Notes under the pieces: generated by a model | Told to the model about the DNA's origin: nothing | What the model saw: the letters and a program-made list of their open reading frames with translations, nothing else | Databases searched by the model: none | NCBI GenBank assembly: GCA_000004985.1 | Contig: GG739102.1 | Length of the DNA: 7,808 nucleotides | From: Naegleria gruberi | Taxonomy: Eukaryota | Strand: one strand, 5' to 3' | Position numbers and translations under genes: made by a program | In this document: in pieces, positions 1-7,808 of the stretch | Layout of the letters: every line of letters starts with the position of its first letter | Position numbering within the stretch: the stretch's first letter is position 1

Positions 1-2
1 AA

Positions 3-965
3 AAGTCAAAATCAAAGGATGAAGCTGGTGGTCCGAAACATGCCCAATTTTACTCGGCAGGAACTTATGAAGAGGAGGCAGAGAGTGCCGCTGTTCAAAC
101 ACCTGTAGCTGCCTCTTCCGAGACAACAGAGGCCACTCCTACATTGACTAAACAAGAAAAGGCACAAAAAAAGGCCACGAAGGAACATACACTTGGGTTG
201 ATTACTTTTAAAATTATTGAATTTTTGCAGGAAGACACTTCTAAAAAGTATACATTTCAACAAATTTTGGAAGCCATTGATCATAGCAGTTGTACCAATG
301 AAGTTGACGAGGAGGAGGAAAAGGAAAAAACTGGAGTTAAATTTGAGGATTCACTTGCTGCTCATCTTGACGATCGGATAAAGAAGGCCATCTATCTGAA
401 ATTAATGCAAAATCACAAGGTGGATTATCAAGGACCAACCACAAAGAATATCGATGAAAATGCTACCTTTTGCTTTAAGGCTATCCATCAGTCTATCAAG
501 GAAAAAAAACACGTTTTGGAATTATTGCAAAATCCAGAGTTTGTAATTAGTGGAATTCCTGTATCTGAATTGGCTGAAAGTTACAAGGGTGTATTAAATG
601 ATATTGAAGAGCTCAAGAAGGAAAAGGCTGTCATTTCCATACCCAACCAAGATAAGAAGTGTGACATTTTGTACTTTAATGATGTGAGTGTAGATATGCC
701 AATAGTTGATGTTAAACTGAGAGATTTGTGGAGGGGAACAAGAGAGAGACGTATTCCTGCATCAGATTTACCATCCCTCCTACAAAAAGTTGGTCTTCCC
801 GCTATACAAACTGTTGAATGGCCAGAAGATGAACACAGAAAGAAGAAGGAAGCTGAAAGAGAAGAAAATGCAAAGAATACCAAGACTAAACGTACTCGTA
901 AGATGAATGTCAAGAAGATGACCAATAAGCACTTGGCTGAAGAATTTGTTGCTCACCAAAAGTAA
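3..965 (+). CDS. TFA2: General transcription factor TFIIE beta subunit, the small subunit with a winged-helix domain. It is 5'-partial: the frame is open to the window start and it ends at TAA 963-965.
   Basis: Frame 3 has no stop from position 3. Track position 144 is a TTG codon, so it is not the real start. The translation aligns along its whole length with the human TFIIE-beta protein as I remember it. The winged helix GLITFKIIEFLQ...YTFQQILEAI matches human FGVLAKIVNYMK...LTLDEILDET. KKCDILYFNDVSVDMPIVDVKLRDLWRG matches [26 protein letters not shown]. The basic C-terminal tail ends KMTNKHLAEEFVAHQK, against human KTHNEHLAGVLKDY. The N-terminal part in the window is the S/T/A-rich low-complexity region typical of this factor. 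Confidence 0.75.
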   Translation, partial: KSKSKDEAGGPKHAQFYSAGTYEEEAESAAVQTPVAASSETTEATPTLTKQEKAQKKATKEHTLGLITFKIIEFLQEDTSKKYTFQQILEAIDHSSCTNEVDEEEEKEKTGVKFEDSLAAHLDDRIKKAIYLKLMQNHKVDYQGPTTKNIDENATFCFKAIHQSIKEKKHVLELLQNPEFVISGIPVSELAESYKGVLNDIEELKKEKAVISIPNQDKKCDILYFNDVSVDMPIVDVKLRDLWRGTRERRIPASDLPSLLQKVGLPAIQTVEWPEDEHRKKKEAEREENAKNTKTKRTRKMNVKKMTNKHLAEEFVAHQK

Positions 966-1245
966 ATATTCAAAGTTTTTTGACATGATCAAAAAACAGT
1001 TTTACTTCATAACAAAAGAGGGTAGAAATTAATTATGTGTGTTATTGATGTATTAAATTGGGAATGTTTTGTATTATTCGAAATAATATTAATAAGGTGA
1101 TATTCTAAATTTGGTAATTTACAAAGTAATTTCAAATCAATTTCACTAATAGGATTACAAAAGGTTAAATCTCTCAATGTTGATATTTTAGAAATGTAAT
1201 GAAATATATTCTTATTCTTAATAATGCTTCACAAATATGGTCCAA
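966..1245 (+). terminator. AT-rich 3' flank of the TFIIE-beta gene, presumed 3' UTR and polyadenylation region. It is interrupted by the assembly gap.
   Basis: It lies immediately downstream of the TAA stop. It is very AT-rich with TA-rich and AATAAT-like elements and has no ORF on either strand. No specific signal could be confirmed. Confidence 0.25.
1041..1092. repeat. Left copy of an imperfect direct repeat flanking the gap. It reads GTTATTGATGTA, then about 25 nt, then TTCGAAATAATATTA.
   Basis: The 12-mer GTTATTGATGTA (1041-1052) and 15-mer TTCGAAATAATATTA (1078-1092) both recur on the other side of the gap. They keep the same order and a similar spacing, 37 nt here versus 30 nt there. 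TTAAATTG also occurs in both flanks. Confidence 0.5.
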
Positions 1246-2913
1246 NCCNNNNNNNNNNNNNNNNNNNNNNNNNNNNNNNNNNNNNNNNNNNNNNNNNNNN
1301 NNNNNNNNNNNNNNNNNNNNNNNNNNNNNNNNNNNNNNNNNNNNNNNNNNNNNNNNNNNNNNNNNNNNNNNNNNNNNNNNNNNNNNNNNNNNNNNNNNNN
1401 NNNNNNNNNNNNNNNNNNNNNNNNNNNNNNNNNNNNNNNNNNNNNNNNNNNNNNNNNNNNNNNNNNNNNNNNNNNNNNNNNNNNNNNNNNNNNNNNNNNN
1501 NNNNNNNNNNNNNNNNNNNNNNNNNNNNNNNNNNNNNNNNNNNNNNNNNNNNNNNNNNNNNNNNNNNNNNNNNNNNNNNNNNNNNNNNNNNNNNNNNNNN
1601 NNNNNNNNNNNNNNNNNNNNNNNNNNNNNNNNNNNNNNNNNNNNNNNNNNNNNNNNNNNNNNNNNNNNNNNNNNNNNNNNNNNNNNNNNNNNNNNNNNNN
1701 NNNNNNNNNNNNNNNNNNNNNNNNNNNNNNNNNNNNNNNNNNNNNNNNNNNNNNNNNNNNNNNNNNNNNNNNNNNNNNNNNNNNNNNNNNNNNNNNNNNN
1801 NNNNNNNNNNNNNNNNNNNNNNNNNNNNNNNNNNNNNNNNNNNNNNNNNNNNNNNNNNNNNNNNNNNNNNNNNNNNNNNNNNNNNNNNNNNNNNNNNNNN
1901 NNNNNNNNNNNNNNNNNNNNNNNNNNNNNNNNNNNNNNNNNNNNNNNNNNNNNNNNNNNNNNNNNNNNNNNNNNNNNNNNNNNNNNNNNNNNNNNNNNNN
2001 NNNNNNNNNNNNNNNNNNNNNNNNNNNNNNNNNNNNNNNNNNNNNNNNNNNNNNNNNNNNNNNNNNNNNNNNNNNNNNNNNNNNNNNNNNNNNNNNNNNN
2101 NNNNNNNNNNNNNNNNNNNNNNNNNNNNNNNNNNNNNNNNNNNNNNNNNNNNNNNNNNNNNNNNNNNNNNNNNNNNNNNNNNNNNNNNNNNNNNNNNNNN
2201 NNNNNNNNNNNNNNNNNNNNNNNNNNNNNNNNNNNNNNNNNNNNNNNNNNNNNNNNNNNNNNNNNNNNNNNNNNNNNNNNNNNNNNNNNNNNNNNNNNNN
2301 NNNNNNNNNNNNNNNNNNNNNNNNNNNNNNNNNNNNNNNNNNNNNNNNNNNNNNNNNNNNNNNNNNNNNNNNNNNNNNNNNNNNNNNNNNNNNNNNNNNN
2401 NNNNNNNNNNNNNNNNNNNNNNNNNNNNNNNNNNNNNNNNNNNNNNNNNNNNNNNNNNNNNNNNNNNNNNNNNNNNNNNNNNNNNNNNNNNNNNNNNNNN
2501 NNNNNNNNNNNNNNNNNNNNNNNNNNNNNNNNNNNNNNNNNNNNNNNNNNNNNNNNNNNNNNNNNNNNNNNNNNNNNNNNNNNNNNNNNNNNNNNNNNNN
2601 NNNNNNNNNNNNNNNNNNNNNNNNNNNNNNNNNNNNNNNNNNNNNNNNNNNNNNNNNNNNNNNNNNNNNNNNNNNNNNNNNNNNNNNNNNNNNNNNNNNN
2701 NNNNNNNNNNNNNNNNNNNNNNNNNNNNNNNNNNNNNNNNNNNNNNNNNNNNNNNNNNNNNNNNNNNNNNNNNNNNNNNNNNNNNNNNNNNNNNNNNNNN
2801 NNNNNNNNNNNNNNNNNNNNNNNNNNNNNNNNNNNNNNNNNNNNNNNNNNNNNNNNNNNNNNNNNNNNNNNNNNNNNNNNNNNNNNNNNNNNNNNNNNNN
2901 NNNNNNNNNNNNN
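1246..2913. other. Assembly or scaffold gap: 1668 consecutive N, apart from cc at 1247-1248.
   Basis: A run of N. The long all-X ORFs in the track across this interval are artefacts. Confidence 0.99.
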
Positions 2914-2930
2914 CTCAGAGATGAAATTAA

Positions 2931-2975
2931 GTTATTGATGTACATCAATCGATAATTATTTTCGAAATAATATTA
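2931..2975. repeat. Right copy of the same imperfect direct repeat. It reads GTTATTGATGTA, then about 18 nt, then TTCGAAATAATATTA.
   Basis: It holds GTTATTGATGTA at 2931-2942 and TTCGAAATAATATTA at 2961-2975. It is the partner of the 1041-1092 copy. Confidence 0.5.
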
Positions 2976-3059
2976 TTAAATTGTGAAATAAACAACCCAA
3001 ACCAACGTTCATTTGTTGATTGAAGCAAACGTGATCATCTTTTAAAAATACTTATTAAA

Positions 3060-3231
3060 TCAATCGAAGGCGTTGTTGTATTCTTCTTGCCAGCCATCAC
3101 GGAAGAGCAATCGTGTTTACAAAAAAACTTCCGATAGGAAATAAAACACAGTCAAATCGTTCCGAGACTAGCCATTCACAACAACAGCGAAAAAAAAAAT
3201 AACAAGAAACCCCTCGCTATACAACAATAAG
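3060..3231 (+). promoter_or_regulatory. Putative promoter and 5' UTR of the HSP90-like fragment.
   Basis: The leader on the coding strand is A/C-rich. It has a poly(A) tract at 3192-3201 and an A at -3 (aagATG). This is typical of a highly expressed yeast-type gene. I could not find a convincing canonical heat-shock element (nGAAnnTTCn arrays). Confidence 0.3.
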
Positions 3232-3636
3232 ATGTCTACCGAAACATTCAAGTTCCAAGCTGAGATTAATCAATTGATGAGTTTGATCATCAATACCTTC
3301 TACAGCAATAAGGAAATCTTCTTGAGAGAATTGATATCCAATGCTTCTGATGCTTTGGATAAGCTTCGTCACATCAGTTTGACTGAACCATCAGTCTTGG
3401 ACTCTGAAAGAGAGTTGTTCATCCACATTATTCCTGATAAGGTTAACAAGACATTGACCATTAGAGACTCGGGCCTGGGCATGACTAAGGCCGATTTAAT
3501 TAATTGTTTGATCCATAGTAATCACAATCACTGGGACCTTAATAAAATGCTCTTTGAAAAAATTTTAAAAAATATTTTCTCTCTTGCTCGACAACATGCA
3601 CCCCTTAATAAAATGGAATTTCTTCTTCAAAATTGA
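3232..3636 (+). pseudogene. HSP90: HSP90 (Hsp82/HtpG family) N-terminal fragment. Homologous residues 1-91 are encoded at 3232-3504. An unrelated 43-codon tail then runs to TGA at 3634-3636. This is a truncated or chimeric HSP90-derived ORF.
   Basis: The translation starts [47 protein letters not shown]...[18 protein letters not shown]. This is the HSP90 ATP-binding N-domain up to the G1 box. The expected continuation NLGTIAKSGT...GQFGVGFYS (ATP lid and G2 box) is absent in all frames downstream. The tail [43 protein letters not shown] is instead low-complexity. Near-invariant positions are substituted: DKIRY is DKLRH here and DSGIGM is DSGLGM. Confidence 0.7.
3537..3615 (+). repeat. Exact 13-bp direct repeat CCTTAATAAAATG at 3537-3549 and 3603-3615. 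It sits inside the non-HSP90 tail just past the homology breakpoint.
   Basis: The exact 13-mer was seen twice, 66 bp apart. Confidence 0.4.
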
Positions 3637-3905
3637 AAAATATCTTTTTACTCTCGTAAACTGATAGTATCAAGTTTGAATCATCACACTAGCCTCTGTT
3701 CTTTCACCAAACAATCCGATCGTGGCAATTAGCTTCCATGTGATGACAAATGCTATTGTTGTGATTTTGATTCCTTACATTCTCCACAATGATGGAAGTA
3801 AATTGGTTTTTTGATGGTAATGATGATGATCATTTGTTACTCCACTGAAATTACATGACCGATTTATTTTTACTCATCCATAAACAATCAAGCGAAAAAG
3901 CGATT

Positions 3906-4171
3906 TTGCAACACAATGTGAAACAAGCCTAAATTCCTTCCTTATTCGAAATTAACTCAAAAAAAAAACGCTGCATTTATTGACTCACATAGTTGACAAA
4001 TCAATATTTGCAACACTTGGCAACAAGCCTTTGGTATACAATTCATCACAAGACTTTCATCATCATCACAACAAGACTTTCATCACAACCCTGGTTCACA
4101 TCTAACTGACATAACTAATTTTCAATCTTTCATCAAAATTCAAATTATCTAAAAACAAGCCTTTTTGCAAC
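3906..4171 (+). repeat. Dispersed short motif family. AACAAGCCT occurs three times (3922-3930, 4022-4030, 4154-4162). TTGCAACAC occurs twice (3906-3914, 4008-4016), with TTGCAAC at 4165-4171. The first two instances form a composite unit of 23-25 bp, TTGCAACAC-N5-7-AACAAGCCT.
   Basis: The exact 9-mers were seen at the listed coordinates. The spacing between instances is about 100 and 132 bp. Confidence 0.45.
4044..4084 (+). repeat. Imperfect tandem duplication. The sequence is CATCACAAGACTTTCATCA followed by CATCACAACAAGACTTTCATCA.
   Basis: Read directly from the sequence: two adjacent units of 19 and 22 bp sharing CAAGACTTTCATCA. Confidence 0.6.
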
Positions 4172-4290
4172 TTCACATCTACCAGATACAAAACCATAAG
4201 AAACAACCCTATTCAAATCCATTCAAGTCTCGCAGCAACAACAACACTCATCATTCATTCACTAATTAAATCCTTCGTCATACCATCACA

Positions 4291-7200
4291 ATGTTATCAG
4301 CATCAGCAGAAAATAATCTGCAAGACATGTTTGCTCAATTCCTCAAAGGTCAAAGGGTTGACACTGGAATGGAAGAAGAAAACAAAAAGTTGAAGAAACA
4401 AGTTAATTTTCTCCAAAATCTTGCCTGGGAAAAAGAGCAAGAACTTGAAGAAAGGGATAACGCATTCTATGCAATGGCTGCAAGGGTTGATGGAGGTGTG
4501 CTAGCAAAATATTATACAAAAATAGTTAAAAGTGATAGATCCTATAGAATGCAAATCAATACCATCAAACAACAACTCAAAGAGTGTGATCCAGATGATA
4601 CATTAATTATGAATTCCTTAAAGAAGAAGATTGAGACATTAAACAAGGAACAAGAAGAAGATAAATCCCAATATTTCCTTGAGTATGAGAATGCAATGAA
4701 GATTACTGATGCTGAATTACATGCCATTTACCAAAAACACAATGCAGAGATGTTGGAACAGAAAAAGTTGATTGACTATCTTTATGCAAAGAGCAACGAA
4801 TACGAGTTGACTGGAAAGAAACTTAATGATGGACTGATGGGGAAGGCGTTAGAAATTGAAATACTCAAGAAAAGAGTACAAGAGACTGAGAATCGTTTAA
4901 GAGATGAAGAAAATAGATTTTTAACAGCACAAAATCAGACAATGAATGAATTTGATCTCCGAAACAAATCATTAATTTCAGAAATGAATACTAATCATCA
5001 ATCATTAATATTAGAATTGGACACAAAGCATCAAATGTTAGTATCAGAAATGAATCAAAGATACATGACAAAATTGTCTGAGTTGGAAGAAGAAAACAAG
5101 CAATTAAGGGTCGATACATCAAATTTTTTGCTAGAGTTACAACATTCAAAGTTAAGAATTGATCAATTGGAACTTGAAGTTAAGGAAGCAAAATTAACAC
5201 AGCTAACACTTGGACAGGCAGCTATTAATCAAACTCCTACTACATATTCCAGAACTGAGGCCATGAAAGATTTCAATATCGGTGCATTTTCTGGTGATGC
5301 CATGAGTATTCTCCTTAGACCTCAACAAAGACAAACAATTAGAGAATTTCAGTTCAATCCAGAACAAGACAATGTTACAACATTCCAAGGATATATAGAA
5401 GCTTCAAGAAAAGTGGGTAAAAGAACCTTTGAGAAAAACACTTTAAACAATCATAGGTGTGCAGTAAGGAGTTACTTGAAATTTATTTCAATGTCTCCAG
5501 AGGAAATAGAAGTTATTCCACCAAATAATGATGCCATCAATGCTTGGTTGTGTTTCTTAGCAAGAGAATCAAAGGCCTTCAACACTATTTTGAATTATGG
5601 AAGAGGATTATTAAGCCATATCAGAGAAGAAACAGGTGCCAAGAACAATGCCTCAATAGACCAACTAGACTATAGAAGATTTTCTTCCACTTTGAGTAAC
5701 ATTCTCAAATCATTTGGAAATGAAGAAGAAAAGGCATTAGTATACGATGATGTGGAATACTTTAATGTAATGAAGAAGAGTTATTCATCAACAAGAAGAA
5801 CTATTCTTAGAGATAGAGCCATGTTTGCCTGTCAGAGTGCAATTGGTCAAAGACCAGACTCTATTTCATTCATGAAATTGCGTGATGTTGAGATTTTTAT
5901 CACAGTTGACAAGAGGGTCAAAATTATTTACTCAACCAGGAAAATGAAGACAATTTTGAAAAAACCTCACAAACAGCCAATCACTTCTCAACATAATGGT
6001 GATAGAGAGGTTTGTCCAAATCATGTTTTATTGAACTATCTTATCGCAAGAGGTGCTTTGGCTTCATATGACATCAATACTCCGTTGAACAAAGTTTTGG
6101 AAACTCCTGGTCAAGTATTGATAAAAACAGATATGCAAGACAAGTATTTATTTCCTTGCATGAAAGTAGATGGAACTTTTAGAGATAACAATCGTTTAAG
6201 GACTTTGTATTTCACAAGAATATATCGTCAGCTTTTTTCATTAGCTGGCTACAACAAAAAGGTCAGTGGATATTCCCCTAGAAGATCCTGCGTTACTAGA
6301 ATGATTGAACACTTTATGGACAAAAACACTTACAATGCTGGTGCAGAAGTGGTTGTTAAATGGATTGGTTGGGAAGCTGACTCTAAGGTTTTTAGAGAAT
6401 ATGTTGATGATGTTGTCAAGAACCACCTCAAAATTGGTGACATTTTTGGTTTGAATGAAAATGAACAAGACGGTGAAGAAGATGAGCAAGAGGAAGATGT
6501 TGATGAACAAGATCTAGAAGTAGAGGATGAGGAAGATGACCAATTAAATGAAGATGATGATGATTATCAACAGTCATCAGAATGCATTTTAAATGATGAT
6601 GAAATTGAACTTGAATTCATTCTCAAGATTAATGATGATCAACAATCACCAAGAAGTGTAGAGCTTAATATTGAAACAAGACCAGGATTAGACCCTCAAA
6701 TATCAGCCTACATTGAAGACAAATGTAGAACACTTTATGAATTTCCAAATGATCTCATTATCAAATTTCATTCTAAAATGAGAATTCGTTTTGTGAATTT
6801 TTTATTTTTTGCTCACTTTGAATTAATGCTTCAATTCAAAGACACTTGTAACAATAGAAGATTGAATCAAGAGCAGAGAACCAATCTTAAAATGTCAATT
6901 ATTAATGAAAGATTGAAGAATGATAATTTTAGAAAATCACTTGAAGAAGATGTTGAAAAATTTTTCACTAGAATTATGCCAAGTAATAATCCTTCTAAAG
7001 ATTCTAAATTTGATATCTATTTCAAAGGTATTGATATTCCTATTCGTTATCATGACAAAGCTATTGAGATATATGATTCTGCTGATAATGATATGAACGA
7101 TGAATCAGATCAAGATGAGGTGATGATTACATCTGGTGCAGATGAAGATGAGCAAGAAGAGGCCAACTCAAACTCATCAATCATTACATGGACAGCACTT

Positions 7201-7808
7201 TCTAGAGGAAAGACTTTTCCAAAGATTAGATATATTGCAAAGACGTTAATTTTGAGGGATTCTAAACTCAAAGATAGACTTAATGTCATTCTTCCCAAAA
7301 ACAAAACGAAATATATTGTTTCTAAAGCTTACATCATTCTTTTATTGAAGGAATTACGAGTGAAAGGACTGACAATATTACATGATTTGTTACCACATAT
7401 GAAAAGGCTCAAATCTTGGCAAAATTCTTATACAATCCCAACAAATTTTACTTCTGGAAAAGCTTTTAACAATTACTTATTAATTGAAGGTTATGGTGAA
7501 AAGTTTATTCATAAGAGTGAAAAAGTTAAAGAAAGATTTATGGAATTATTTGTTGGCAAAGATGGTAAATGCAGGGTAGTAGAATATGATGTGAACACTT
7601 TAGAAATAATTCAAGATTCTAAATATCAAAACTCCTTCAGGAAAGCATGTGATTTAACTAAATGTAATTCAAGAAGTGAATCCTATCATTTTCGTTCAGA
7701 TTCAGTTAGGGCACATTTAGAATCTTTAGATGGTATTTCCACAATTTTCAAGAAGGGTAATTATATTTCAACTGCCAATGTTTATGAAAATGAAATGTCA
7801 ATCAAACT
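4291..7808 (+). CDS. Large ORF, 3'-open, of at least 1172 aa. It encodes an N-terminal coiled coil, a central tyrosine-recombinase domain (phage-integrase, Cre/Flp, Crypton-like), an acidic linker, and an unassigned C-terminal region. It is probably the transposase of a Crypton-like mobile element or a gene domesticated from one.
   Basis: The ATG is at 4291. An in-frame TAA lies at 4267 and no earlier ATG follows it. I checked codon by codon that there is no stop through 7808, giving 1172 codons plus 2 nt. It is missing from the ORF track only because it has no stop in the window. Box I is GQRPDSISFMKLRDVEI, with R521 at nt 5851, and it mirrors lambda Int GQRVGDLCEMKWSDI. The lysine region is TRKMKT (K551/K553). 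YSPRRSCVTR (Y661, R664) sits at the HxxR position, compared with Cre HSARVGAARD. WIGWEADSKVFREY (W694, Y704) matches Cre GGWTNVNIVMNYI with the catalytic Tyr 10 residues after the Trp. An upstream region resembles a core-binding domain (RCAVRSYLKFI...AINAWLCFLARESKAFNTILNYGRGLL). The codon usage is coherent, and the antisense ORFs over it are short. Confidence 0.85.
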   Translation, partial: MLSASAENNLQDMFAQFLKGQRVDTGMEEENKKLKKQVNFLQNLAWEKEQELEERDNAFYAMAARVDGGVLAKYYTKIVKSDRSYRMQINTIKQQLKECDPDDTLIMNSLKKKIETLNKEQEEDKSQYFLEYENAMKITDAELHAIYQKHNAEMLEQKKLIDYLYAKSNEYELTGKKLNDGLMGKALEIEILKKRVQETENRLRDEENRFLTAQNQTMNEFDLRNKSLISEMNTNHQSLILELDTKHQMLVSEMNQRYMTKLSELEEENKQLRVDTSNFLLELQHSKLRIDQLELEVKEAKLTQLTLGQAAINQTPTTYSRTEAMKDFNIGAFSGDAMSILLRPQQRQTIREFQFNPEQDNVTTFQGYIEASRKVGKRTFEKNTLNNHRCAVRSYLKFISMSPEEIEVIPPNNDAINAWLCFLARESKAFNTILNYGRGLLSHIREETGAKNNASIDQLDYRRFSSTLSNILKSFGNEEEKALVYDDVEYFNVMKKSYSSTRRTILRDRAMFACQSAIGQRPDSISFMKLRDVEIFITVDKRVKIIYSTRKMKTILKKPHKQPITSQHNGDREVCPNHVLLNYLIARGALASYDINTPLNKVLETPGQVLIKTDMQDKYLFPCMKVDGTFRDNNRLRTLYFTRIYRQLFSLAGYNKKVSGYSPRRSCVTRMIEHFMDKNTYNAGAEVVVKWIGWEADSKVFREYVDDVVKNHLKIGDIFGLNENEQDGEEDEQEEDVDEQDLEVEDEEDDQLNEDDDDYQQSSECILNDDEIELEFILKINDDQQSPRSVELNIETRPGLDPQISAYIEDKCRTLYEFPNDLIIKFHSKMRIRFVNFLFFAHFELMLQFKDTCNNRRLNQEQRTNLKMSIINERLKNDNFRKSLEEDVEKFFTRIMPSNNPSKDSKFDIYFKGIDIPIRYHDKAIEIYDSADNDMNDESDQDEVMITSGADEDEQEEANSNSSIITWTALSRGKTFPKIRYIAKTLILRDSKLKDRLNVILPKNKTKYIVSKAYIILLLKELRVKGLTILHDLLPHMKRLKSWQNSYTIPTNFTSGKAFNNYLLIEGYGEKFIHKSEKVKERFMELFVGKDGKCRVVEYDVNTLEIIQDSKYQNSFRKACDLTKCNSRSESYHFRSDSVRAHLESLDGISTIFKKGNYISTANVYENEMSIK
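4363..5280 (+). other. N-terminal coiled-coil region of the large ORF, roughly residues 25-330.
   Basis: It is K/E/Q/L-rich and heptad-like, for example NKKLKKQVNFLQNLAWEKEQELEERD, LEIEILKKRVQETENRLRDEENRF and LSELEEENKQLRVDTSNFLLELQHSKLRIDQLELEVKEAKL. It has no Pro or Gly. The 12-mer TCAGAAATGAAT is duplicated internally, encoding SEMN at 4978 and 5047. Confidence 0.5.
5440..6420 (+). other. Tyrosine-recombinase domain (core-binding-like plus catalytic) within the large ORF. It spans roughly residues 385-710.
   Basis: See the motif list in the CDS entry. The residues R521, K551/553, Y661, R664, W694 and Y704 appear in canonical order and spacing. Confidence 0.7.
6454..6573 (+). other. Acidic low-complexity linker NENEQDGEEDEQEEDVDEQDLEVEDEEDDQLNEDDDDYQQ. 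A second D/E-rich patch lies at about 7072-7165.
   Basis: GAA/GAT/GAG-rich codon runs are seen directly. Confidence 0.6.

What the first reader, a model, noticed from the sequence alone, without database searches (positions are those of the whole stretch)
3232..3636. HSP90 gene broken after residue 91 and fused to unrelated sequence
The ORF starts as a bona fide cytosolic HSP90, matching eukaryotic HSP90 across the first 91 residues including the [15 protein letters not shown]-binding box. The match stops exactly after GMTKADLIN at 3502-3504. None of NLGTIAKSGT, the ATP lid, GQFGVGFYS or the remaining roughly 600 residues is encoded in any frame downstream. Instead there is a 43-codon nonsense tail. 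Substitutions at near-invariant positions (DKIRY to DKLRH, DSGIGM to DSGLGM, and an unusual TFKFQ) suggest relaxed constraint. A full-length HSP90 is expected to be essential, so this is most likely a duplicated 5' fragment or pseudogene. It could also be the functional locus disrupted by an insertion whose left end is at about 3505.
Basis: partly seen in the sequence, partly recalled or inferred. Interest (0 to 1): 0.6.

Follow-up and report, generated by a model that had tools for sequence, protein, structure and literature searches.

The report
HSP90 first exon abutting recombinase element
A leftover 7.8-kb scaffold of the amoeba Naegleria gruberi carries the promoter and intact first exon of the HSP90 chaperone gene, which stops at its normal splice junction and is followed by a probable mobile element encoding a tyrosine recombinase, so this is an ordinary interrupted or partial gene copy and not a decayed pseudogene.

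Summary
Window 3232-3510 encodes residues 1-93 of a cytosolic HSP90 (PDB hits E 4e-40). No later HSP90 residue is encoded in any frame of the window.

The window is a whole small scaffold of Naegleria gruberi. Its left contig duplicates, at 100% amino-acid identity, the TFIIE-beta gene of a 1-Mb scaffold.

An intact close relative (metagenome contig L001) shares exon 1 with 4 nucleotide differences in 279. It carries every "odd" residue (TFKFQ, DKLRH, SGLGM, INCL), so these are lineage features and not signs of decay. In L001 the exon ends one base after the point where similarity to the window stops. A 102-nt intron and exon 2 (GTIARSGT...) follow. The break therefore sits at the exon-1/intron-1 junction.

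Downstream lie 0.78 kb of non-coding DNA and an ORF of more than 1172 codons that runs off the scaffold. This ORF shows weak but consistent tyrosine-recombinase signatures. It has one, frameshifted, homologue among 1.84 billion representative proteins.

Best reading (confidence about 0.45): a Crypton-like element interrupts one HSP90 copy or haplotype at its splice donor. Still open are a dead-end duplicated fragment, an assembly chimera, and a giant intron. The finding is of low interest; the orphan recombinase is a minor by-product.

The parts
1..965 (+). 3' 320 codons of the TFIIE-beta gene (context; the N-terminus is cut by the scaffold end)
   Evidence: Pfam TFA2_Winged_2 E 1e-15. 100% identical to EFC35627.1 'predicted protein, partial [Naegleria gruberi]' on a 7808-bp contig. 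319/319 aa identical to full-length XP_002682618.1 on a 1,001,995-bp scaffold.
1246..2913 (.). Scaffold gap: one isolated N at 1246 and a run of N from 1249. The link between the TFIIE-beta contig and the HSP90/recombinase contig rests on scaffolding only.
   Evidence: Read directly.
2914..3231 (+). HSP90 upstream region (promoter and 5' UTR), diverged from that of the relative L001 but recognisably homologous. Shared block at 3097-3133 (TCnCGGAAGnGnAAT..TTTACAAnAAAC.TTCCG) and ATACAACAATAA just before the ATG.
   Evidence: Global alignment score 29 against a shuffle mean of 6.9, sd 3.6, max 23. blastn 75.7% over 37 nt.
3232..3510 (+). HSP90 coding exon 1, codons 1-93 (GHKL ATPase motif [13 protein letters not shown] and motif DSGLGMT). 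Intact, with strong codon bias.
   Evidence: PDB phmmer E 4e-40. 97.6% nucleotide identity to L001 119-406. 4 nucleotide differences in 279 coding nt, one non-synonymous codon. GC3 0.52; AAG, TTC and TAC each used 100%.
3511..3636 (+). Read-through tail of the ORF (41 codons plus TGA). It is non-coding in character and carries two copies of CCTTAATAAAATG (3537-3549 and 3603-3615), each containing AATAAA.
   Evidence: No similarity to the L001 intron (score 17 against a shuffle mean of 16.7). No protein homologues extend into it; P0001's own tail is different intron read-through. GC3 0.24.
3518..3523 (+). GTAATC, a donor-like hexamer 7 nt after the break (L001's real donor is G|GTAATT). If used, the exon would end at A3517 in the same phase, adding 6 nt and changing LINCL-G-T to LINCL-IHS-T.
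   Evidence: Sequence read directly. No evidence of use.
3511..4290 (.). 780 nt of non-coding, A/C-rich spacer. It is either the 5' part of the putative element or its promoter region. No ORF >= 42 aa.
   Evidence: ORF list. GC skew down to -0.55. No Rfam hit above threshold; weak C/D-box-like hit at 3812-3890, E 0.9. Not conserved with L002's upstream region.
4291..7808 (+). Open reading frame of at least 1172 codons that runs off the scaffold end. Layout: N-terminal coiled coil (res 1-310), SAM-like core-binding region (about res 370-450), tyrosine-recombinase catalytic domain (about res 505-710), acidic tract (res 722-760), then an uncharacterised C-terminal region.
   Evidence: Pfam Phage_integrase E 5.8e-4, res 611-706, below the gathering score. 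PHROG 216 integrase E 3.4e-5, res 493-674. hhalign against XerD+Cre E 5.9e-4, probability 29%, aligning box I. One homologue only, P0127 at 51% identity, among 1.84e9 representatives. No word-index hits. None in viral contigs.
5851..6402 (+). Candidate catalytic residues of the recombinase: R521 (5851-5853, AIGQRPDSISFMKLRDV), Y661 in place of the first His (6271-6273), R664 (6280-6282, YSPRRSCVT), W694 (6370-6372) and the nucleophile Y704 (6400-6402, GWEADSKVFREY).
   Evidence: Read from the translation and matched by eye to XerD RDKAMLEVLYATGLRVSEL / SPHVLRHAFAT / LGHSDLSTTQIY. Box I placement is supported by hhalign. The remaining assignments are inference.

Best explanation
Window 2914-3510 is the promoter, 5' UTR and complete first coding exon (codons 1-93) of the Naegleria gruberi cytosolic HSP90 gene. 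At 3510/3511, one base short of the gene's exon-1/intron-1 junction, it is joined to foreign DNA. That DNA is 0.78 kb of non-coding sequence followed by an ORF of more than 3.5 kb for an orphan tyrosine recombinase.

The most likely reading is that a Crypton-like (recombinase-only) mobile element has integrated at the splice donor of one HSP90 copy. This is probably one haplotype of a heterozygous strain, which the assembler set aside as a 7.8-kb leftover scaffold that ends inside the element. Transcripts from the HSP90 promoter would then fail to splice, run into the element, and meet the stop at 3634 and the AATAAA signals at 3541 and 3607. The 134-aa ORF would be a by-product, not a chaperone. 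The event would be recent, because the exon carries no disabling change.

Shown: the identity and extent of the exon, the position of the break relative to the intron of an intact relative, the absence of the rest of the gene in the scaffold, the source organism and the leftover-scaffold status, and the recombinase-like nature and patchy distribution of the downstream ORF.

Inferred: that the downstream DNA is a mobile element, that it inserted rather than the exon being copied next to it, that the rest of HSP90 lies beyond the element, and that the locus is one allele.
For: - HSP90 residues 1-93 match at E 4e-40, and nothing beyond residue 93 is present in the window.
- The intact relative L001 shows exon 1 ending G407|GTAATT, a 102-nt intron, then exon 2 [33 protein letters not shown]. 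Window-L001 similarity is 97.6% over 3221-3510 and stops at 3510.
- The upstream region is still detectably homologous (z about 6), whereas the sequence after 3510 is not (z about 0). The 3' loss is therefore sharper than ordinary non-coding drift.
- The exon has only one amino-acid and two synonymous differences from L001 and keeps high-expression codon bias, which collapses at 3511.
- The downstream ORF gives three independent weak recombinase matches that agree on the same domain, and the catalytic motifs are present in order.
- The ORF has no orthologue in N. fowleri, N. lovaniensis or Willaertia, although their proteomes are in the searched libraries (their TFIIE-beta was found; ORF searches). 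Its only relative is a frameshifted copy in a metagenome. This patchy, decaying pattern is typical of mobile elements. Its codon usage is unbiased.
- The window is a complete 7,808-bp N. gruberi scaffold. Its TFIIE-beta part is 100% identical in protein to the copy on a 1-Mb scaffold, as expected for a set-aside haplotype carrying a structural variant.
Against: - No second copy of the element, no empty site and no element termini were seen, so mobility and the insertion boundaries are unproven.
- The recombinase assignment rests on sub-threshold profile matches. The single-sequence AlphaFold model was useless (pLDDT 32).
- In N. fowleri and N. lovaniensis, TFIIE-beta is followed by an F-box/LRR gene. 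No HSP90 lies within 10 kb. The TFIIE-beta-HSP90 adjacency implied by the scaffold is therefore not conserved, and it crosses an N gap.
- The junction lies 1 nt inside the exon rather than at a recognisable target duplication.
- I could not retrieve N. gruberi's other HSP90 locus. Allele, paralogue and artefact therefore cannot be separated.
Confidence: 0.45

Rival explanations
1. Dead-end duplicated fragment. Only the promoter and exon 1 of HSP90 were copied (by segmental duplication, or by capture next to or inside the recombinase element). No HSP90 continuation exists downstream, and the functional gene is elsewhere and untouched.
For: - TFIIE-beta is not next to HSP90 in two other Naegleria genomes. 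This fits a fragment sitting in a non-native place.
- The exon is 98.6% identical to L001 while the promoter is only loosely similar. This could reflect a recent copy or gene conversion of the exon alone.
- The scaffold ends before anything can be seen.
Against: - The copy would have to end within one base of the exon boundary by chance, or by an RNA-mediated route that should have brought in exon 2.
- Upstream homology to L001 extends at least 140 nt with conserved promoter blocks, as for a genuine locus.
- No disabling mutations.
Confidence: 0.2
2. Assembly or cloning chimera. Reads from the true HSP90 5' end and from a repeated element were joined in a low-coverage leftover scaffold of the Sanger draft, and the junction does not exist in the genome.
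For: - The window is a whole 7.8-kb scaffold with a 1.67-kb gap and an ambiguous base at the contig end.
- Its left contig duplicates a main-scaffold gene exactly.
- The junction is only 600 nt from the contig's left end, within reach of one read.
- The scaffold stops inside the ORF, as assemblies do in repeats.
- No independent sequence with this junction was found.
Against: - A random ligation or mis-join would fall within 1 nt of the exon-intron junction with probability well under 1%.
- The contig has no ambiguous bases across the junction.
Confidence: 0.2
3. Functional gene with a giant first intron. Exon 1 is spliced, from the GTAATC at 3518 or another donor, across more than 4.3 kb containing the element to an exon 2 beyond the scaffold end, so HSP90 is still made from this copy.
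For: - A donor-like A|GTAATC sits 7 nt after the break, in the same phase as L001's G|GTAATT.
- The exon is intact and codon-biased.
- Similarity between any two diverged loci is expected to end where an intron begins.
Against: - Using that donor replaces the invariant Gly of NLGTIA(K/R)SGT with Ile-His-Ser.
- The relative's intron is 102 nt.
- From my own knowledge, Naegleria introns are generally short.
- There is no GT at the position homologous to the real donor.
Confidence: 0.1

Closest known systems
Cytosolic HSP90 (HSP90A/Hsp82 family; GHKL ATPase N-terminal domain)
   Same: Residues 1-93 align end to end with HSP90 N-domains (about 71% identity to yeast Hsp82, about 80% to fungal and plant HSP90). 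This includes [12 protein letters not shown] and the DxGxG-type DSGLGMT motif.
   Different: Only 93 of about 700 residues are present. The ATP lid, GQFGVGFYS, the middle domain and the C-terminal dimerisation/MEEVD region are all absent from the scaffold. Lineage-specific residues (DKLRH, SGLGM, Cys in place of the conserved second Asn of LINNLG) are shared with an intact relative.
Crypton DNA transposons (eukaryotic elements that encode a single tyrosine recombinase)
   Same: One long intron-less ORF with a tyrosine-recombinase domain preceded by a SAM-like region. No reverse transcriptase in 3.5 kb. No obvious terminal repeats. Patchy distribution, with a decayed relative.
   Different: No detectable sequence similarity to any Crypton or other eukaryotic recombinase in a 1.84-billion-protein scan. 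No GCR1_C-type DNA-binding domain. It has a 310-residue coiled-coil N-terminus and a C-terminal extension of more than 450 residues. Copy number, termini and mobility are unknown.
DIRS1-like tyrosine-recombinase retrotransposons (candidates reported but unconfirmed in N. gruberi; PMC3266345)
   Same: They encode a tyrosine recombinase. N. gruberi is listed with 7 degraded candidate copies.
   Different: No RT, RNase H or methyltransferase signal in the ORF or in any other frame of 4291-7808. The ORF is far longer than DIRS recombinase ORFs. The element is incomplete, so a downstream RT cannot be excluded.
Transposon insertions in heat-shock gene 5' regions (for example P elements in Drosophila Hsp70 promoters; recalled from my own knowledge, not tested here)
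   Same: A mobile element sits in the 5' part of a constitutively open, highly expressed chaperone gene.
   Different: Here the junction is at the first splice donor, not in the promoter, and the element type is different. No population data are available.

Membership tests
Cytosolic HSP90 | N-terminal GHKL ATPase motif I (ExxxNxxDAxDK) and motif II (DxGxGM) | tested here: met
   [12 protein letters not shown] and DSGLGMT are aligned to HSP90 structures, E 4e-40.
Cytosolic HSP90 | ATP lid and G2 box (NLGTIAKSGT ... GQFGVGFYS) | tested here: not met
   tblastn finds nothing after residue 93 in any frame of the window. These motifs are present in the relative L001.
Cytosolic HSP90 | Middle domain, C-terminal dimerisation domain and MEEVD | tested here: not met
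   tblastn with full-length Hsp82 gives no hit with E < 1 outside 3232-3510. A continuation could lie beyond the scaffold end.
Processed or decayed pseudogene | Frameshifts, stops or an excess of non-synonymous change relative to a functional copy | tested here: not met
   93 codons are open, with 1 non-synonymous and 2 synonymous codon differences from L001. Codon bias is retained. The comparator is a close relative, not N. gruberi's own intact copy.
Tyrosine recombinase superfamily | Catalytic domain with R..K..H-x-x-R..H/W..Y, recognised by family profiles | tested here: inconclusive
   PF00589 scores 20.1 bits against a cut-off of 27.1, E 5.8e-4. PHROG 216 integrase E 3.4e-5. hhalign against XerD/Cre E 5.9e-4 but probability 29%. 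The motifs R521, Y661-x-x-R664, W694 and Y704 are present in order. The structure model failed.
Crypton transposons | Multiple genomic copies with definable ends and empty sites; sequence affinity to Crypton recombinases | not testable with these tools
   The N. gruberi genome was not retrievable. No similarity to any known recombinase family member at E <= 1e-3.
Crypton transposons (fungal CryptonF type) | C-terminal GCR1_C DNA-binding domain | tested here: not met
   No Pfam hit other than Phage_integrase and a spurious coiled-coil match.
DIRS1-like retrotransposons | Reverse transcriptase/RNase H (and methyltransferase) ORF alongside the recombinase | tested here: not met
   No RT-family hit in the ORF. 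No other ORF >= 60 aa on the + strand in 4291-7808. The element is truncated by the scaffold end, so absence is not proven.

The most novel reading that the evidence does not exclude
The HSP90 promoter and first exon are not a victim but a part of the unit. A tyrosine-recombinase element (or a chimeric host gene) would have captured a strong, stress-responsive HSP90 promoter, first exon and donor-like site (A|GTAATC at 3517/3518) and would splice it onto the recombinase ORF. In-phase AG acceptors exist at 4299-4309, just inside the ORF, and both ATGs are in frame 1. This would give heat-shock-driven expression of an HSP90(1-95)-recombinase fusion.
Probability: 0.04. Interest if true: 0.6.

Novelty: new member of a known kind. 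Interest (0 to 1): 0.25.

Why it matters
For HSP90 biology it matters little. A gene 5' end interrupted by, or copied next to, a mobile element on a leftover scaffold of a draft assembly is routine, and annotation pipelines should simply not call 3232-3636 a protein.

Two small points have some value:

1. The residues that looked like decay are genuine features of Naegleria HSP90. They include a Cys at the conserved second Asn of LINNLG, a residue I recall (not tested here) lying close to the ATP pocket. This is relevant to anyone modelling inhibitors against Naegleria HSP90.
2. The downstream ORF is a large, essentially orphan tyrosine recombinase, with one relative among 1.84 billion representative proteins. 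If it proves to be multi-copy, it would define a new heterolobosean lineage of Crypton-like elements. It would also help settle the unresolved status of recombinase-encoding elements in N. gruberi.

Tried and rejected
**Looking for the window's own sequences in public assemblies**
- Exact look-ups of the 134-aa ORF, of P0121 and of the full-length TFIIE-beta P0128 all returned 'not on record'. I therefore could not see N. gruberi's main HSP90 locus or the scaffold's neighbours.
- The cluster look-up of L001's exon-2 product found that it is not in the collection.

**Looking for the junction elsewhere**
There is thus no independent sighting of the junction.

**Characterising the long ORF**
- The word-index homologue search found nothing.
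- The exhaustive representative search found one hit.
- The viral-contig scan found nothing.
- The NCBIfam and PDB sequence searches found nothing meaningful.
- Single-sequence AlphaFold of ORF residues 351-720 gave pLDDT 32 and was unusable, so I ran no fold search.

**Looking for element ends or structure**
- The repeat search found no terminal inverted or direct repeats bracketing anything.
- No non-coding block is shared between the window's spacer and the upstream region of the metagenomic relative.

**Other checks**
- Rfam and tRNA scans gave only sub-threshold hits.
- The bacterial promoter/terminator scan was uninformative for a eukaryote.
- Literature searches for N. gruberi HSP90 accessions, for Cryptons in Naegleria and for the source project of L001 gave nothing decisive.

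**Readings considered and rejected**
- Intron sliding, with a donor GTTTGA at 3506. It needs the GTTTG/GCTTG match to L001 to be coincidence.
- A U12-type AT-AC donor at 3511. ATCCAT does not fit ATATCC.
- In-frame splicing into the recombinase ORF as meaningful evidence. In-phase AGs are expected from the A/G-rich codon composition.

Full report
**What is in the window.** The window is AT-rich eukaryotic DNA (GC about 33%) with a 1.67-kb run of N (1249-2913, plus an isolated N at 1246). Three coding features lie on the + strand.
- An ORF open from the left edge to 965.
- The 134-codon ORF of the finding, 3232-3636.
- An ORF from 4291 that is still open at the right edge (at least 1172 codons).

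Pfam identifies the first as TFIIE-beta (TFA2_Winged_2, E 1e-15). It gives only weak HATPase_c hits for the second and a sub-threshold Phage_integrase hit for the third.

**Source.** The TFIIE-beta fragment is 100% identical to EFC35627.1, 'predicted protein, partial [Naegleria gruberi]', whose longest contig is 7,808 bp. The window is therefore an entire small scaffold of the N. gruberi draft genome.

The same 319 residues are identical to residues 58-376 of the full-length TFIIE-beta XP_002682618.1. That protein lies on a 1,001,995-bp scaffold. So the left contig of this scaffold is redundant with the main assembly. That is what one expects of a set-aside haplotype, an unplaced repeat-containing piece, or a mis-scaffold. 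I could not fetch the N. gruberi genome itself.

**Checking the observation.** Residues 1-93 of the ORF align without gaps to HSP90 N-terminal domains (7k9r E 3.9e-40; many human HSP90-alpha entries about 1e-37). It finds only 3232-3510, and every other hit has E > 0.6. The rest of HSP90 is therefore not encoded anywhere in the scaffold. The match extends two residues further, to 3510, and the tail is 41 codons.

**The informative relative.** The best database hit, P0001 (E 1e-52), comes from a 1,048-bp ENA metagenome contig, L001.

L001 119-406 is 97.6% identical to window 3221-3510. Within the 279 coding bases there are four differences: codon 2 (TCT/GCC, Ser/Ala) and synonymous changes in codons 70 and 92.

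L001 then reads TTG G|GTAATT, followed by a 102-nt intron (408-509) ending in TTATTACAG, and then GT ACT ATT GCT AGA TCT GGA. The spliced protein is ...[43 protein letters not shown]..., which continues as good HSP90 to the contig end.

Two consequences follow.
1. The pseudogene-by-decay argument fails. The exon's codon usage supports this: AAG, TTC and TAC are each used 100% of the time and GC3 is 0.52, typical of a highly expressed gene. GC3 drops to 0.24 immediately after 3510.
2. Similarity between the window and the intact gene ends at 3510, one base before the exon's last base (G407 in L001; the window has A3511). The break is at the exon-1/intron-1 junction.

**Flanks of the exon.** Upstream, the window and L001 are still recognisably homologous, though diverged and gapped. 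The global alignment score is 29, against a shuffle mean of 6.9 and sd 3.6. Shared blocks include TCnCGGAAGnGnAAT..TTTACAAnAAAC.TTCCG at 3097-3133 and ATACAACAATAA before the ATG. The window thus carries an HSP90-type promoter, not a bare exon.

Downstream of 3510 there is no similarity to L001's intron (score 17 against a shuffle mean of 16.7). No acceptor followed by exon 2 exists.

A donor-like A|GTAATC lies at 3517/3518, in the same phase as the real donor. Using it would turn the invariant LGT of the ATP-lid hinge into LIHST, so I regard it as cryptic or coincidental. The tail carries two copies of CCTTAATAAAATG, each containing AATAAA, at 3537 and 3603.

**What follows the break.** 3511-4290 is non-coding and A/C-rich.

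The ORF from 4291 has the following layout.
- A 310-residue coiled-coil N-terminus, including a 33-nt repeat present 2.9 times.
- A region resembling the SAM-like core-binding domain of XerC/D-type recombinases (FEKNTLNNHRCAVRSYLKF...INAWLCFLARESKAFNTILNYGRGLL).
- A catalytic-domain-like region with AIGQRPDSISFMKLRDV (box I Arg521), YSPRRSCVT (Tyr661-x-x-Arg664 in the place of H-x-x-R) and GWEADSKVFREY (Trp694, Tyr704).
- An acidic tract.
- More than 450 further residues with no recognisable domain.

Three independent profile methods point weakly to the same assignment.
- Pfam Phage_integrase, E 5.8e-4, below the gathering score.
- PHROG 216 'integrase', E 3.4e-5.
- hhalign against XerD plus Cre, E 5.9e-4 but probability only 29%. 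It places box I on XerD's RDKAMLEVLYATGLRVSEL.

A single-sequence AlphaFold model was useless (pLDDT 32). I therefore call this a probable, not proven, tyrosine recombinase.

It is nearly an orphan. The word-index search found nothing. The exhaustive scan of 1.84 billion representatives found one protein, P0127 (51% identity over ORF residues 319-449). P0127 lies on metagenome contigs L002/L003, where the reading frame is broken by two frameshifts.

The libraries searched held the N. fowleri, N. lovaniensis and Willaertia TFIIE-beta proteins, yet none of these organisms has a homologue of the ORF. The 20-kb regions around their TFIIE-beta genes contain neither HSP90 nor this ORF.

The element-like features are these:
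- a large intron-less recombinase ORF;
- unbiased codon usage;
- patchy distribution, with a decayed relative;
- a scaffold that stops inside the ORF.

Together these fit a mobile element of the Crypton type, meaning a recombinase with no reverse transcriptase in view. They do not fit a conserved host gene. Membership of the Crypton or DIRS superfamilies cannot be shown. There is no sequence affinity, no GCR1_C domain and no RT. Copy number and termini are unknown. A survey of DIRS1-like elements lists only degraded, unconfirmed candidates in N. gruberi (PMC3266345).

**Most likely mechanism.** My best reading (about 0.45) is that a recombinase-encoding element integrated at the splice donor of one HSP90 copy, plausibly one haplotype of the laboratory strain. 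The assembler could not merge that haplotype, which left this small scaffold.

Such an allele would produce unspliced, prematurely terminated transcripts and no chaperone. It would be tolerated because other copies remain. The intact, codon-biased exon argues that the event is recent.

**Rivals.**
- A dead-end duplicated promoter-plus-exon-1 fragment, about 0.2. It is favoured by the non-conserved TFIIE-beta neighbourhood.
- An assembly or cloning chimera, about 0.2. It is favoured by the leftover-scaffold status and by the junction lying 600 nt from a contig end. It is disfavoured by the coincidence with the exon boundary.
- A functional gene with an element-bearing intron of more than 4.3 kb, about 0.1. 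It is disfavoured by the loss of the canonical donor and of the invariant glycine.
- A speculative reading in which the HSP90 promoter and exon are spliced onto the recombinase. In-phase acceptors exist at 4301-4310, but they are expected from codon composition alone. I give it about 0.04.

**Verdict.** Its central argument for decay is refuted.

The feature is an ordinary kind of thing, a gene 5' end abutting a probable mobile element on an unplaced draft scaffold. Interest is low. The only mildly novel by-product is the orphan tyrosine-recombinase ORF.

Decisive tests need the rest of the N. gruberi genome, the underlying reads and RNA-seq. None of these was reachable with the tools here.

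Noticed in passing
window 1-1248 and 1249-2913: The left contig (the 3' part of TFIIE-beta plus 281 nt) duplicates a gene on a 1-Mb N. gruberi scaffold at 100% protein identity. It ends in a low-quality base (N at 1246) just before a 1.67-kb scaffold gap. The whole window is thus a redundant leftover scaffold, and its internal linkage rests on mate pairs only.
   Followed up: partly
window 3505-3507 (codon 92) and L001 401-403: Naegleria-type HSP90 has Cys where other HSP90s have the conserved second Asn of LINNLG. From memory this is human Asn106, which I recall as a nucleotide/inhibitor-pocket residue; I did not check this. The lineage also has DKLRH in place of DKIRY and SGLGM in place of (S/T)GIGM. 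All are present in the intact relative, so they are lineage features.
   Followed up: partly
window 3537-3549 and 3603-3615: The 13-nt direct repeat CCTTAATAAAATG occurs twice, 66 nt apart, just after the break. Each copy contains an AATAAA polyadenylation-like signal.
   Followed up: no
window 3812-3890 (+): Weak C/D-box snoRNA-like match (SNORD11B, 24.7 bits against a gathering score of 50, E 0.9), with an AUGAUGA box and a CUGA. Probably chance. Noted because snoRNAs often sit in introns of highly expressed genes.
   Followed up: no
window 4967-5060: A 33-nt tandem repeat (2.9 copies, 74% matches) inside the coiled-coil part of the long ORF encodes SLISEMNTNHQ / SLILELDTKHQ / MLVSEMNQRY.
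   Followed up: no
window 6452-6570: Asp/Glu-rich tract (ORF residues about 722-760) built from imperfect 9- and 21-nt repeats. It separates the recombinase domain from an uncharacterised C-terminal region of more than 450 residues with no database match.
   Followed up: partly
L002 2506-3403 (JGI metagenome 3300002220) and L003: The only homologue of the long ORF is broken by two frameshifts (near L002 3150 and 3240) and has a much shorter coiled-coil N-terminus. It sits 365 nt from a divergently oriented gene for a 361-aa Q/P-rich membrane protein. L002 and L003 are 100% identical over 1386 nt.
   Followed up: partly
L001 408-509: The 102-nt HSP90 intron of the relative contains an internal direct duplication of about 45 nt (TTTTACATTATTTCTTGA..TTAACAAATTATTATTA occurs twice).
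   Followed up: no
L004 and L007 (N. fowleri and N. lovaniensis TFIIE-beta loci): Gene order around TFIIE-beta is conserved between these two species: DENN, Mito_carr, DFP upstream; F-box/LRR and WH1/PBD downstream. It does not match the right-hand part of the N. gruberi scaffold.
   Followed up: partly
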